A DNA stretch of 63,719 nucleotides, the filler included, from Octopus bimaculoides (taxonomy: Eukaryota): assembly GCF_001194135.2 (NCBI RefSeq). It is 7 parts of 7 records of this genome, joined end to end, with 100 filler letters (N's around TTAATTAATTAA, not from the genome) between each part and the next. Parts side by side here need not be neighbours in the genome. Positions count along the whole stretch, not along the records: positions 11,061 to 25,503 come from NC_068983.1; positions 25,604 to 31,368 come from NW_026431558.1; positions 31,469 to 54,694 come from NC_068981.1; positions 54,795 to 58,661 come from NC_068988.1; positions 58,762 to 61,232 come from NW_026336117.1; positions 61,333 to 63,719 come from NC_069001.1; 1 more part is not named here. One strand, 5' to 3'. The position numbers were made by a program, and so were the translations under genes. Below, piece by piece: positions 13,503-63,719 of this stretch; the first letter of the stretch is position 1; each line of letters begins with the position of its first letter. Under the pieces are notes generated by a model, which saw nothing but the letters and a program-made list of their open reading frames with translations, was not told where the DNA came from and ran no database searches.

Positions 13503-14182
13503 ATAAGCTCTGGAGTGGCTGTGCCGCTGGCAGGAAAAGGTGAGATCCCCCCCCCCTCTGAGGAGGAGGAGGAGGAGTTTGTCCTCCTGTACCTCAGGGG
13601 CGGGAAGGTTGAGAAGCACTTGGACTGTGAGTGCAGACCGGAAAGATCCTTTTCGGCCTGCGCAAGCAGTTCAAGGTGGCCTCAGTAGTTGGCTGCAGAG
13701 ATAATAAACAGTAACACCCGTGCTGGGATCGCGGTCACCTGTGGTAGCCTCGAGTACATGTGCCTCGATACTGAGGCAGAGTTGACCATGGGGGTTTGCC
13801 TGTTAGCGGCAGAGAGCCTGCTTACAAGGCATTGAATTTTATATTGTTGATTTGTATGTTATATTTTTAATTGTGTAAACTTTGAACAAGGTTTTCGAGG
13901 GGTTGTCGATCTGTGGGCGTCGGCACCCCTCTCATTTTTCATCTTTATCATCTTTCATTATGTTCATTAATGTCTTTGTCCGGCCCTGCTACTTGCACTG
14001 TATGTTAGTCCTCAATGGCCAATTATTGAAATAAAGTAGCTTGCTTATCAGGCACATGGTCCCGGGTTCAGTCCCACTGCGTGGTATCTTGGGCAACTGT
14101 TTTCTACTATAGCTTCGGGCTGACCAAAGCCTTGTGAGTAGATTTGGTAGACGGAAACTGAAAGAAGCCTGGCTTATATATA
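13503..14182 (+). mobile_element. SINE-A split by a 512-bp retro-insert (13524-14035)
   Basis: Head ataagctctggagtggctgtg (13503-13523), then an insert ending GAAATAAA, then SINE-A resumes at gtagcttgctta (14036) through aaagaagcc. Confidence 0.8.
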
Positions 14183-14399
14183 TGATAGTCTAAACTCCGT
14201 TTTTTCCGTTTATCAATGATGATTGAGGAGGTGGGACAGGAAAGGTTTAGCAATCGCAGCCATTCCATATTATTGTTATATCGCACGTGTGGATGACCTC
14301 TACTCAACTCTCACTTCCGACGACTCGACTCTACAGAACTCGACGTCTAGTCCACCGACGGCTCCGGCTCCTCTACGTGACGCTTTTCGTCTAGCTTAT

Positions 14400-14595
14400 T
14401 TATACATATTGGATTACCCTACTTATCGCCTGGGGGCGTCCACACAACAGTTATCCAGCTTAATGAAGTTCTCGGTGTTTATATTTCATTTCGTATTTAA
14501 TCATTCGTTTTATGTTTTATATCCCCATTGTGGTGTTGTGTCTGTCCTTGTAGTGTCCCCTCTGTGTTCGGACCGTAGTGCCCAATAAAGAAATA
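14400..14595 (+). mobile_element. 3' UTR/tail of the same LINE-like tail family
   Basis: gtctgtccttgtagtgtcccctctgtgtt...cccaataaagaaata resembles the tails at 40344-40450 and 48381-48440. Confidence 0.55.
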
Positions 14596-14604
14596 GAACG
14601 ATTG

Positions 14605-14932
14605 TGACTGACACAAGTTGGTAAGGTGGTGCTTTAGGCTTGTTATCACACTTGCTGCCATATTTCGATGGTTTTTAGACATAATATGTTTCACTATTCT
14701 GTGGTCTTTCTCTCTCTGTGAGTTTTGTCTTCCGTCCAGAATGATACATGTTAGAGTTGGTTTTCCTTTGGTGTTGGAATGGCTACAGAATTTTACAGAC
14801 TGTAGCTTTTGATATGTTAAACAGTTCAGCAGTTTTAATGACTGAAACTCCAGTCATTCGCGATCCAAAAATTTGTCCCCTTTCGAAATCAGATAATTCA
14901 CGCAATTTATTTAAATATATCTGCAACCCCAT
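14605..14932 (-). mobile_element. Tc1-like transposase N-terminal (paired-like HTH) fragment
   Basis: RELSDFERGQIFGSRMTGVSVIKTAELFNISKATVCKI, followed after stops and shifts by SGRKTKL and IMSKNHRNMAASV. These are typical Tc1 N-terminal motifs. Confidence 0.8.
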
Positions 14933-17900
14933 TCCACCAAAAAAAAAAGAAGAAAAACAGACAAACAATAAAGGTAGAACATATCATGGAGGGCAAAACA
15001 ATGAACACTTTGTTATAATGGTTCCTAATTTTGGCACAAGGCCAGCAATTTCGGGGTAAGACGATTACAACAACACCCGTGTTCAACAGGTACTTATTTT
15101 ATCGACTCCCAAAGGAGGAGGAATGATAAAGTCGACCGCGGCGATCTATGTATGTATGTATGCATGTATGTATCTATCTATCTATCTATTTATCTGTCCC
15201 CAAAAGAAAAGCTCTACTTTATATTTTGTCCCCTCTGTGTTCAGCCCTGTGTGGCTAGTACAGAAACATATCTATCTATCTATCTATCTATCTATCTATC
15301 TATCTATCTATCTATCTATCTATCTATCTATCTATCTATCTATCTATTTAATTTAGATTTTCAGAAACGTGACTTTCACGAAGCTGCCTCTGTCACATCT
15401 AAAATGCATATTTCCCTATTATTTTCCTTCGTATTTCTTTTCGTTCTCTCAATCTCCAATTATCCTTCGATATCCTTGTTGAGTTTCCTCATCTCGCTTT
15501 TTGTTTTGCTTTTCCCAGATTCTAACTTTGGTCTCAGGTCTGTATACATACATACATACATACATGCATACATACACACAAACAAATATAACCTGTTGTT
15601 GATGTTGAAATTCCAATGAAGGAGCCTTGGATCTAGGTTAGAACCGGTATTTTCTCTATTGGCAAGAAATCTTGAAATAAACTGAATAATGACATACATA
15701 CATACATACATACATACATATATACATACATGCAAGCGTACATACATGCATACATACATATATATGTGTGTGTATATATATATTTTTGTGTATGTATATA
15801 TATATATATATATATATATATATATATATATATAAATAACTCTCTACACACACATATATATATGCATATATATTCCTCTGTATTTATGTATACCTATATT
15901 TTTCAATCTAAATATCTCTCTATCTCAATGTGTGTATATATTCTCTCTTTCTCTCTCTCTCTCTCTCTACACACACATACACAAACACACACACACACAC
16001 ACACACACACACACACATATTTACATATACACCGCACACACTCACACATTTACTGATTTCTTTCACAATCGCACACACCCCTGCTTTATTCTCTTTCCTA
16101 CAATTTTCCAGGTCCTTCACCACTTGATTTCCCCCTTTTAATCCAAACTTCATACTCTTTTAACGCAATGTTCCTCCTCCTACTTTTCTCATTTACCCGC
16201 TTCTCTATTGCTTTTATCACGCTTTGTCTGAAGCTTTTCTTCATTTTTCTCTTACGCTGTTCCTTCATTTTCTTTCAATTACAATGGCGGCCTATCTTTT
16301 CCTTGAATGATTTTCATGCTTTTTATTTTCTCTCACCCTCCATCGTCTGTTGACAATGGTTATTCTACTCAACTCACTGTTTCCATCCCTTTGTCGTAGA
16401 CTTCGTCGTCACCGCCCGAAGTACGCAGATATATAGCCATTAAGCTATACTCTATGTATATGCATTATGTATGTATTCTACGCGTGCATGTATACGTACG
16501 TATCGATGTATATACGCTCGCACGTGTATTTTTGTGTAGTATATATACATATACATGCATGTATACATGCATACATACATGCATACACACACACTTATAT
16601 GTATAAATGTATATAAATGTATATATATATATATATATATATATATATATATACAAACATACATGCATATGTACATACATATATACACACGTACATACAC
16701 ACATACGCACAGACACACAGACACACTTGCATATGCATATGTATANNNNNNNNNNNNNNNNNNNNNNNNNNNNNNNNNNNNNNNNNNNNNNNNNNNNNNN
16801 NNNNNNNNNNNNNNNNNNNNNNNNNNNNNNNNNNNNNNNNNNNNNNNNNNNNNNNNNNNNNNNNNNNNNNNNNNNNNNNNNNNNNNNNNNNNNNNNNNNN
16901 NNNNNNNNNNNNNNNNNNNNNNNNNNNNNNNNNNNNNNNNNNNNNNNNNNNNNNNNNNNNNNNNNNNNNNNNNNNNNNNNNNNNNNNNNNNNNNNNNNNN
17001 NNNNNNNNNNNNNNNNNNNNNNNNNNNNNNNNNNNNNNNNNNNNNNNNNNNNNNTGTGTGTGTGTGTGTGTGTGTGTGTGTGTGTGTGTGTGTGTGTGTG
17101 TGTATACAAATACGTTTCTATGTCAATAAGACATTTACATGAGGGTCTGTGTTAGTGTGAGATCAGAGAGATATTGTTGGATAGAAAGTGAGAGAAAGAA
17201 ACAAAAGAGAGGGCGAGAGAGAAAGAGAAAGAGAGAGAGAGAGAGAGAGAGAGAGAGTGGGAGGGAGAGAGAACCATTTCGTTATGTAGGCTGACATTCG
17301 AACCCTCAGTCATGTGACACCCAGATGAGAAATTTCACGCCCTTCTGCACCTCAAGCTCAGCCCCTTACGAACATGATGTTGCTCCAAAATTCTCTTCCC
17401 CACACATACACACCAGCCAACGTTCACTTATTGTCATCGACATCTAATACTCTCCCTCTCCTCTACTTCTCTTTCTCTCTCGTCTGATAAAGGAAAGACA
17501 CAAGAGGGCAAGAGAGAAAGCAACAAAGAAACTGGAAAAGCACTTGTGCCGGTCGATCTTTGAGAGTGCTGTTATAGTGACAGCGACAGCATTTTAAAGG
17601 CTGCCGTTTCTCTAAGACCTGCATTGATAAGAATCAAACTGCTTTAGATTTTATACACTTATTCAATATTCCCTACAGAAAGACATTCTGATCTCATGGC
17701 ATTGTGCCTCTGTTAAGGTGCCATTTAGAAACGCAAAGATGTGCAAAATCCACAGGGCAATTTCTAAACTTGTGTATTTGTTTCACAATAGGATTATCTC
17801 CATCTATCTTGTATGTATGTATGTATGTATGTATGTATGTATGTATACTTACACACATATATGTATATATGTATGTGTGTATATACAGATATATATGAAC

Positions 17901-62989: not shown

Positions 62990-63053
62990 TAGAGTCTGAT
63001 GAGACGTCCCTGAGATTATAACCTTCGTGGGTGCGAAACTATTGGTCACTCTA
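62990..63053 (+). ncRNA. Type I hammerhead ribozyme with an intact catalytic core
   Basis: TAGAGT-CTGATGA-GACGTCCC..GGGTGC-GAAA-CTATTGG-TC^-ACTCTA: 6-bp helix I, canonical CUGAUGA and GAAA, GUC cleavage triplet (63045-63047), short helix III. Confidence 0.75.
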
Positions 63054-63243
63054 TGACCAGGCATTAACTTTATAACTTTAAAAATTCACTGCTATATGAT
63101 TCGGTGTGCTTCTTTTTCGGATAAATTATAAATTGACCACACGCACACGCACACGCACATACACGCGCACGCACACACACGCACACACACGCAAGCAAAT
63201 ATACACGCACACACACACACACACACACACACACACACACATA

Positions 63244-63278
63244 TAGGCGCAGGCGTGGCTGTATGGAAGCTTGCTTCC
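63244..63278 (+). mobile_element. SINE-A head only, ending at the hotspot
   Basis: taggcgcaggcgtggctgtatggaagcttgcttcc, then unrelated sequence. Confidence 0.8.
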
Positions 63279-63367
63279 GCGCATGCGTCACCCAGAGTGC
63301 ATTTGGCTTGGCGTTTGTGTGCGAGTCGGACGTTTTTTGTTTCTTTGCTGCTTTGAGGGTAGAGACA

Positions 63368-63719
63368 ATGTACTCAGACTTCAGTGGGTCTGAGTTGTCT
63401 TCAGCAGAGGAGGAGCTAGTAAGGATGGTCATAAAGATGGACGGAGTGTTGGAGAAGACAAGGAGTTTTGCTGAGGCCACGGAGATGAAGCGAAGGGAAT
63501 TGGACTTGGCTGGTCTGAAGGAGTATGAGAAGATGGTACAGAAGGTGAGAGGGGACGTGAGGCTGTCCCCCACCAAAAGGAATTATGGAGCGGATGGAGA
63601 GAAAAACGATCACCTATAGGGTGTTCTCGTTAAAAGGTAAAAAGGCCGAGCAGGTGGAAGTTGAAACGGAAAAGGCGCCAAGGAAGAAGTCGAAAGAAAT
63701 AATATACATAACTAAAGAA
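63368..63719 (+). pseudogene. 5' part of a retroelement ORF1-like gene with one frameshift near 63600
   Basis: MYSDFSGSELSSAEEELVRMVIKMDGVLEKTRSFAEATEMKRRELDLAGLKEYEKMVQKVRG... to TAG at 63619. A shifted frame KTITYRVFSLKGKKAEQVEVETEKAPRKKSKEIIYITKE stays open to the window end. It is non-repetitive and charged, and follows a short T-rich leader; the family assignment is inference. Confidence 0.55.

What the first reader, a model, noticed from the sequence alone, without database searches (positions are those of the whole stretch)
13503..63719. Candidate SINE-targeting site-specific retrotransposon system: five SINE-A heads are interrupted at the same site
Seen: about ten SINE-A copies retain the head region, and five are broken there (13503/14036, 40343/40451, 45619, 48371/48619, 63278). 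Three visible 3' junctions fall at the identical position, with an A-rich insert tail joined to G(T/A)A(G/T)CTTGCT. Three 5' junctions lie 10-13 nt downstream of that position, which is the geometry of a target-site duplication. One event has both junctions and a perfect 10-bp TSD. The three inserts with visible 3' ends are co-oriented with the SINE and have related TTTGTCC...CTGT...GGC...AAA tails. Established: Tx1-clade L1 elements often insert at fixed positions in multicopy targets such as tRNA and snRNA genes or microsatellites. Inference: a LINE, plus a SINE-C subfamily using its tail, targets the tRNA-derived head of an abundant SINE. It would thereby separate the A-box from the B-box, silencing that SINE copy while using it as a safe harbour. 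I do not know of a description of this in cephalopods but cannot check.
Basis: partly seen in the sequence, partly recalled or inferred. Interest (0 to 1): 0.88.

Follow-up and report, generated by a model that had tools for sequence, protein, structure and literature searches.

The report
Retroelements share one octopus SINE site
Three different jumping-gene insertions in this likely octopus DNA end at exactly the same base inside copies of a very common short repeat, which is likely the work of a sequence-targeting copying enzyme of a kind already known to aim at other repeats, though how strict the aim is across the genome is untested.

Summary
Five of 10 SINE-A copies whose head site can be read are broken there. 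Three unrelated-length inserts end at the same base (AA^G), co-oriented, each with an A-rich tail, and one has a 12-bp target duplication. Chance is unlikely (P about 6e-6 to 9e-3 by null, post hoc). The inserts differ and both SINE subfamilies are hit, so this is not one chimeric master. Corrections: two events show 6- and 9-nt target deletions, not duplications. The ORF-like piece beside 45619 reads antisense. Only two of the three tails are clearly related, and that tail also ends outside SINE heads twice. The 'SINE-C subfamily' rests on one copy. The window has no reverse transcriptase, so Tx1 membership is untested. Read-laying did not resolve a genome-wide peak; it bounds any one junction position at about 7% of copies. 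Best reading: target-primed insertion by a sequence-preferring LINE endonuclease (about 0.65). This works like Tx1-Mar/SINEU, Keno and Mutsu, with a SINE head as target. The site is a 21-bp near-palindrome that may set the second nick. This scan has noted similar SINE-head targeting before on other DNA, including octopus-like genomes.

The parts
13512..13523 (+). SINE-A head, 5' part; stops 6 nt before the insertion site (target deletion)
   Evidence: junction spanned by X1 contig record 1 with 0 differences
13524..14035 (+). 512-bp 5'-truncated insert: end of a reading frame (13524-13832, one stop in this copy) + T-rich 3' UTR + A-rich tail; likely a LINE 3' end
   Evidence: low-copy relatives in reads; no Pfam, PDB or real protein hit
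14036..14184 (+). SINE-A remainder starting at the target G (B-box-like motif at 14065-14075)
40451..40468 (-). SINE-A head, 5' part; stops 9 nt before the site (target deletion)
40344..40450 (-). 107-bp tail-only insert
39940..40343 (-). SINE-A remainder, complete to its 3' end
48619..48655 (-). SINE-A head with first copy of the 12-bp duplication (48619-48630)
48381..48618 (-). SINE-C head and body (48612 to about 48447) joined to the shared tail, with 6 extra nt at its 5' end
48316..48382 (-). Second copy of the duplication (48371-48382, overlapping the tail A's) and truncated SINE-A remainder
45619..45660 (-). SINE-A head broken 13 nt past the site; no remainder found
44554..45618 (+). Neighbouring element: ORF1-like fragment on + (44554-44718, antisense to the SINE head), 30/31-bp repeats and a 330-bp tandem duplication; orientation of the end next to the SINE is ambiguous
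63241..63278 (+). SINE-A head (4-nt deletion at the site), broken 11-13 nt past the site
63279..63719 (+). Likely 5' end of a full-length LINE: 89-nt leader and frameshifted ORF from ATG 63368, co-oriented; runs off the window
   Evidence: 79% and 62% identity to the N-terminal part of P0002
51518..51538 (-). Example empty target: 21-bp near-palindrome with 7-bp perfect arms; insertion point between 51533 and 51532
14520..14594 (+). Same tail type ending outside a SINE-A head (counter-example)
15196..15268 (+). Same tail type ending in a (TATC)n microsatellite (counter-example)

Best explanation
Three separate retroelement copies end at the same base of the SINE-A head, and this is likely target-primed reverse transcription started by a LINE endonuclease that prefers this sequence. 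Shown: identical 3' junctions, A-rich tails, co-orientation, variable 5' ends (one 12-bp duplication, two target deletions), different inserts, both SINE subfamilies hit. Inferred: the enzyme nicks the bottom strand at or within 2 nt of CTT^ACC, the RNA's A-tail pairs with the exposed T's, and cDNA is made for the LINE itself (13524, 63279), for truncated tails (40344) and in trans for a tailed SINE-C (48381). Inferred: the mobiliser is one or more L1/Tx1-type families, with sister families of similar tail aiming elsewhere. Speculative: the site is a 21-bp near-palindrome, so the same motif recurs on the top strand 13 nt away, and the three downstream 5' junctions lie within -1 to +2 nt of that mirror position; a symmetric second nick would explain 12-15 bp duplications. 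The insertion falls just after the A-box-like motif and would separate it from the B-box-like motif, but loss of transcription was not tested.
For: 3 of 3 visible 3' junctions at one base. Against random choice among the window's 1188 TAA[AG] sites, 3 of 5 tail-bearing ends at 10 SINE-A sites gives P=6e-6; the weakest null tried (2 of 4, 255 TAAG[TA] sites) gives P=9e-3 (post hoc). Other tRNA-like SINE heads are unbroken: SINE-B 4 of 4 full heads plus one degenerate hit, SINE-C 5 of 5. Reads show two SINE-A variants at the site (about 68% and 32%, position 51531); both are hit (GTA type at 14036, 40343, 45619; GAA type at 48380, 63278). Each insert keeps its own 5' head half. The 63368 ORF matches an octopus protein piece that also matches the 44554 fragment, so both belong to a dispersed ORF family. 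Precise target choice in other repeats, with duplications or deletions, is described for the Tx1 clade (PMC4494074, passages and part 3 read); 13 recently active L1-Tx1 families are listed for O. vulgaris (PMC13282606).
Against: No RT or endonuclease in the window and no homologue for the insert's ORF end (the one hit is a tandem-repeat artefact). No insert-tail row among the six loose-end rows shown per run when reads were laid on an empty site (451 rows not shown); any one clip position is under 3795 reads against depth about 82,000, about 7% of copies, well below the 3 of 8 seen here, so the window is likely enriched. Depth fell smoothly across the site with no resolvable step. Two of four clearly related tails end outside SINE-A. 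The 14035 tail is only marginally related to the others. The mirror motif is imperfect in the GAA-type hosts (48619, 63278), which weakens the symmetric-nick idea; overall folding of the head is not above shuffles (z -1.3). n is small and the window was picked because of this pattern.
Confidence: 0.65

Rival explanations
1. A relaxed hot spot: ordinary L1-type endonucleases of several unrelated families cut T^A steps after pyrimidines anywhere, and the hairpin-forming motif in an open, very abundant SINE is simply one favoured site among many.
For: The bottom strand reads CTT^A or TCTT^A, close to the general L1 cut preference (recalled, not from a call). Inserts are heterogeneous; the shared tail also ends at 14594 and in (TATC)n at 15268. 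Occupancy per position is bounded at about 7%.
Against: The window has over a thousand TAA[AG] sites, yet 3 of 5 tail ends use the 10 SINE-A sites; SINE-B heads, with a similar GGTTA(A/G)GGC motif, are unbroken.
Confidence: 0.2
2. The real target is a tRNA gene family (or another tRNA-like repeat) and SINE-A is hit because its head still resembles that target.
For: The site lies at the end of the D-loop-like part of a tRNA-like head; RNA-gene targeting about 20 nt from the 5' end is known for Mutsu in 5S genes (PMC5340908, passages) and A-box targeting of tRNA genes for Dada DNA transposons (PMC8869645, PMC3706591, passages).
Against: The head is far from any tRNA by ARAGORN and Rfam (no tRNA hit), and the palindrome downstream of the site is a SINE feature. 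No tRNA gene is in the window to test.
Confidence: 0.07
3. Chance plus selection of the window, or break repair at a fragile hairpin, with RNA or DNA fragments captured at the break.
For: Two events have deletions rather than duplications; one head has a 4-nt deletion at the site; 45619 may be antisense; the window was chosen from many. With 15-20% genome-wide occupancy 3 of 8 would be ordinary, with 2-7% it would be rare.
Against: All three 3' junctions are base-exact, start from the tail's last A and are co-oriented, which break repair would not give; one has a perfect 12-bp duplication.
Confidence: 0.05
4. The junctions are copies of one amplified chimeric master element.
For: Shared tail-to-SINE junction sequence at 40344 and 48381.
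Against: Inserts differ in length and kind (512, 107, 238 bp), hosts belong to different SINE-A variants, each keeps its own 5' head half with a different 5' junction, and the 13524 insert has only a handful of close relatives against about 1e5 SINE copies.
Confidence: 0.03

Closest known systems
Tx1-Mar LINEs and SINEU passengers in Mariner-N4_AMi, crocodilians (PMC4494074; passages and part 3 of 5 read)
   Same: A LINE lineage and a passenger SINE share fixed sites in another interspersed repeat; both target duplications and target truncations occur; preference ranges from 13% to 90% of copies.
   Different: Target here is the tRNA-like head of a SINE, not a DNA transposon; clade and genome-wide fraction are not established here.
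Tx1L in Tx1D (Xenopus), Keno (U2 snRNA), Kibi/Koshi (microsatellites) (as summarised in PMC4494074, passages)
   Same: Base-exact insertion into a multicopy target; sister families choosing microsatellites would match the tail at 15268 in (TATC)n.
   Different: Different target; no endonuclease sequence or assay here.
Mutsu, 5S rRNA-specific LINE of zebrafish (PMC5340908, passages read)
   Same: Inserts about 20 nt from the 5' end of a Pol III unit and disrupts it; subfamilies track target variants.
   Different: Target is a functional gene in tandem arrays; here a dispersed, selfish SINE.
Dada DNA transposons in tRNA genes (PMC3706591, PMC8869645, passages read)
   Same: Target in or near the A box of tRNA-type promoters.
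   Different: DNA transposons with a 6-nt duplication at tRNA positions 8-13; the inserts here have A-rich tails, 5' truncations and a 12-bp duplication.

Membership tests
Tx1 clade (sequence-specific L1-group LINEs) | RT domain groups with Tx1 in a phylogeny | not testable with these tools
   No RT-like frame in the window; no genome held; no ORF2 homologue retrieved.
Tx1 clade (sequence-specific L1-group LINEs) | ORF2 with apurinic-like endonuclease | not testable with these tools
   Only a 103-aa C-terminal piece is present; no Pfam or PDB match.
Tx1 clade (sequence-specific L1-group LINEs) | ORF1 RNA-binding protein upstream of ORF2 | tested here: inconclusive
   63368 ORF matches only P0002 (79%), an octopus gene model with no family on that part. 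Calling it ORF1 rests on its position and on recalled resemblance. The structure job had not finished.
Tx1 clade (sequence-specific L1-group LINEs) | Target-specific: one sequence in more than 20% of a family's flanks (criterion in PMC4494074) | tested here: inconclusive
   In the window 3 of 5 tail-bearing 3' ends (2 of 4 clearly related ones) are at the site, but families are pooled and n is tiny; read-laying could not give the fraction.
Non-LTR retrotransposition (TPRT) footprint | Exact 3' junction at an A-rich tail, variable 5' end with duplication or deletion of target | tested here: met
   3 of 3 events with both ends: one 12-bp duplication, deletions of 6 and 9 nt.
LINE-SINE pair sharing tail and target (Tx1-Mar/SINEU type) | A SINE family carries the LINE tail and inserts at the same site | tested here: inconclusive
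   1 of 6 SINE-C copies has the tail and sits at the site; its tail matches 40344 (0 of 500 shuffles) but not clearly the coding insert at 14035 (111 of 500).
tRNA-derived SINE (target SINE-A) | tRNA-like head with A and B boxes | tested here: inconclusive
   A-box-like and B-box-like motifs at tRNA spacing by eye; ARAGORN and Rfam give no tRNA hit (the SINE-C head in the same stretch was also missed).
Dada DNA transposons | 6-nt duplication at tRNA positions 8-13, no poly-A-like tail | tested here: not met
   Site is past the A-box-like motif, duplication 12 bp, inserts tailed and truncated.

The most novel reading that the evidence does not exclude
A Tx1-type LINE lineage in octopus has evolved an endonuclease that reads a 21-bp palindrome unique to the head of a SINE with over 100,000 copies, nicks both strands at the same mirrored motif, can insert either way round, and carries a second SINE into the first, splitting the target's promoter each time: a three-level parasite chain in which one retroelement's success creates another's landing pads.
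Probability: 0.2. Interest if true: 0.7.

Novelty: new variant of a known kind. Interest (0 to 1): 0.45.

Why it matters
Known target-specific LINEs use RNA genes, microsatellites or DNA transposons. A SINE head as the fixed target would add a dispersed, very high-copy target and a direct LINE-on-SINE conflict in a lineage whose genomes are about one-ninth SINE (11.6% in O. vulgaris, PMC13282606). A new sequence-specific endonuclease is also of interest for RNA-templated insertion tools. I found no description of SINE-head targeting in 9 paper searches, but Repbase and Dfam entries and most subscription papers (including the 2004 screen cited for Keno, Mutsu and Dewa) could not be seen, and the concept itself is established.

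Tried and rejected
No whole genome was held, so the breakpoint histogram could not be made from an assembly. A SINE-A pattern found nothing in metagenome, viral or prokaryote contigs (0 matches each). Laying reads on 13440-14190 was swamped by SINE-A (depth about 120,000 against 1-80 on the insert). Laying reads on an empty site showed only edge and subfamily-variant rows plus a palindromic library adapter among the six rows per run; the rows at 51527 and 51535 are SINE subfamily differences, not insertions. Protein searches: none; one hit (P0002); only itself; one hit (P0004) that is a tandem-repeat artefact; Atlas hits all under 0.9; Pfam and PDB nothing relevant. Rfam and ARAGORN gave no tRNA. 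Runs X13-X19 held 6-7% of the words of the first query; only X15 and X17 were laid, and they show that SINE-A is abundant in organisms B and C, nothing about the insertion. Rejected: chimeric master, Dada-type DNA transposon, assembly error at 13523.
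Full report
Setting. The window is repeat-rich animal DNA with 7315 N's in many gaps. 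It is likely octopus: the ORF at 63368 is 79% identical to part of an Octopus bimaculoides UniRef entry. No whole genome was held, so genome-wide tests had to go through public reads.

Observation. Motif and profile searches found 12 SINE-A head or body copies. Two begin downstream of the site and were left out. Of the other 10, five are intact at the site (2911-, 5364+, 32011+, 46108-, 51550-) and five are broken. The three events with both ends in view share the 3' junction to the base: an A-rich tail joined to the G of GGTAA^G (14035|14036, 40344|40343, 48381|48380). Because tail and target both have A's there, the nick is fixed only to within 2 nt. Their 5' ends differ: 6 nt of target missing at 13523, 9 nt missing at 40451, and a perfect 12-bp duplication at 48619-48630 / 48371-48382. 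The heads at 45619 and 63278 break 13 and 11-13 nt past the site, but no second half is in view. A contig of run X1 spans the 13523 junction with no difference.

Is it chance? With 10 SINE-A sites among 1188 TAA[AG] sites on both strands, 3 of 5 tail-bearing ends at SINE-A gives P=6e-6; the weakest null tried (2 of 4 ends, 255 sites) gives 9e-3. These are post hoc, and the window was chosen for the pattern. As an internal control, SINE-B heads (4 of 4 full, one more degenerate) and SINE-C heads (5 of 5) are unbroken.

The inserts. 13524-14035 is the end of a reading frame, a T-rich 3' region and a tail; the stop in this copy is a C in most relatives read (position 13686), so the frame is a family feature. 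It has only a few to tens of relatives at 82% identity or more, against depth about 120,000 for SINE-A. 40344-40450 is a tail alone. 48381-48618 is a SINE-C joined to that tail; of the other five SINE-C copies four carry a different tail and one is cut earlier. Tails at 40344, 48381, 14594 and 15268 are related (0 of 500 shuffles for five of six pairs, 6 of 500 for the sixth), while the 14035 tail is marginal (7, 76, 111 and 369 of 500). The tails at 14594 and 15268 end outside SINE-A heads, one in (TATC)n. So several families are involved and the tail type is not tied to SINE-A. 63279-63719 looks like the 5' end of a long element, co-oriented, with an 89-nt leader and a frameshifted ORF. Left of 45619 the only protein-like piece (44554-44718) matches the next part of the same octopus protein (31% over 39 aa, pairwise E 2e-8) but on the strand opposite to the SINE. 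That junction can be read two ways: as a 5' end (the motif GCGCATGCG occurs 3 times in the window, twice within a few nt of these two junctions), or as the 3' end of an antisense insertion at the mirror arm of the target. I could not decide.

Clade. There is no RT motif in any frame. The ORF pieces have no Pfam, PDB or Atlas match and no real homologue beyond P0002. 'Tx1' therefore rests on the insertion footprint, on L1-Tx1 families being active in octopus (13 families in Table 1 of PMC13282606, part 1 of 3 and passages read; also PMC8967140, passages) and on recalled resemblance. It is a lead, not a result.

Genome-wide attempt. Laying one raw-read run and three contig runs on an empty site showed no insert-tail row among the six loose-end rows per run; 451 rows were not shown. 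The sixth row of the raw run had 3795 reads against depth about 82,000; with the clip efficiency seen (0.63-0.70) this bounds any one junction position at about 7% of copies, perhaps 15-20% if split over three positions. Depth fell smoothly over the site. It does suggest the window (3 of 8 bodies) is richer than average. The same call shows two SINE-A variants at the site, about 68:32, and both are hit in the window, which argues for independent events.

Mechanism. Shown: exact 3' ends, tails, truncations, one duplication, two deletions; this is the footprint of target-primed reverse transcription, in which both outcomes are described (PMC4494074). Inferred: a sequence-preferring endonuclease nicks the bottom strand at CTT^ACC and the tail A's pair with the T's. 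The empty site is a 21-bp near-palindrome with 7-bp perfect arms (9 of 55,851 21-mers in the window have such arms) and folds as a hairpin (overall z -1.3). The same motif thus recurs on the top strand 13 nt away, and the three downstream 5' junctions lie at -1, 0 to +2 and +2 from it. A symmetric second nick is an attractive but weak hypothesis: the mirror motif is imperfect in two of those three hosts, and 12-15 bp is an ordinary duplication length for L1-group elements (recalled). The insertion lies just past an A-box-like motif and before a B-box-like motif, so it would break a tRNA-type promoter; silencing and safe-harbour value were not tested.

Comparison. It works like Tx1-Mar with SINEU in Mariner-N4 (PMC4494074, passages and part 3 read), Tx1L, Keno and Mutsu (PMC5340908, passages). 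It is not a Dada element (PMC3706591, PMC8869645, passages). PMC9115989 and PMC3747384 (passages) and PMC13282606 do not describe such targeting in octopus. Nine searches (listings only) gave no paper on a LINE targeting a SINE head; no supplements were read, and Repbase or Dfam could hold such an entry. Earlier notes of this scan report SINE-head targeting in other genomes, several octopus-like; they are unchecked leads, not support, and I could not tell whether they concern this SINE.

Verdict. A real, non-random insertion hot spot, likely true sequence-directed retrotransposition (0.65), of a known kind with an unusual target. Clade, strictness and the SINE-C partnership remain open. Interest 0.45.

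Noticed in passing
window 2150-2746: A 5'-truncated SINE-A (2194-2720) sits inside an older SINE-A-like body whose halves flank it; its middle is duplicated around a 10-N gap, probably an assembly artefact.
   Followed up: partly
window 27097-31000: A 3.9-kb (TACG)n-type satellite, about 977 units, unusually CpG-rich.
   Followed up: no
window 14185-14594: A second tail-bearing insert of about 400 bp cuts off the same SINE-A copy in its (TA)n middle; the SINE's 3' half is missing.
   Followed up: partly
window 15196-15268: Tail-only stub inside a (TATC)n array, suggesting a sister family with a microsatellite target.
   Followed up: partly
window 21945-22551: Three SINE-C copies in tandem, separated by (GTT)n/ATT repeats.
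   Followed up: no
window 32011-32203: SINE-A copy with an intact head fused directly to its 3' half (internal deletion between two short matching stretches).
   Followed up: no
window 10961-11060, 25504-25603, 31369-31468, 54695-54794, 58662-58761, 61233-61332: Six gaps have the same layout, 44 N + 12 letters + 44 N; scaffolding filler rather than biology.
   Followed up: no
P0002 (UniRef A0A0L8GU38): An octopus gene model joins about 200 residues of this repeat-derived ORF to a C2H2 zinc-finger array; likely a gene-model artefact, though a real fusion is not excluded.
   Followed up: partly
runs X15, X17 laid on window 51461-51550: SINE-A is about as abundant in organisms B and C as in organism A, so the target predates their split.
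   Followed up: no
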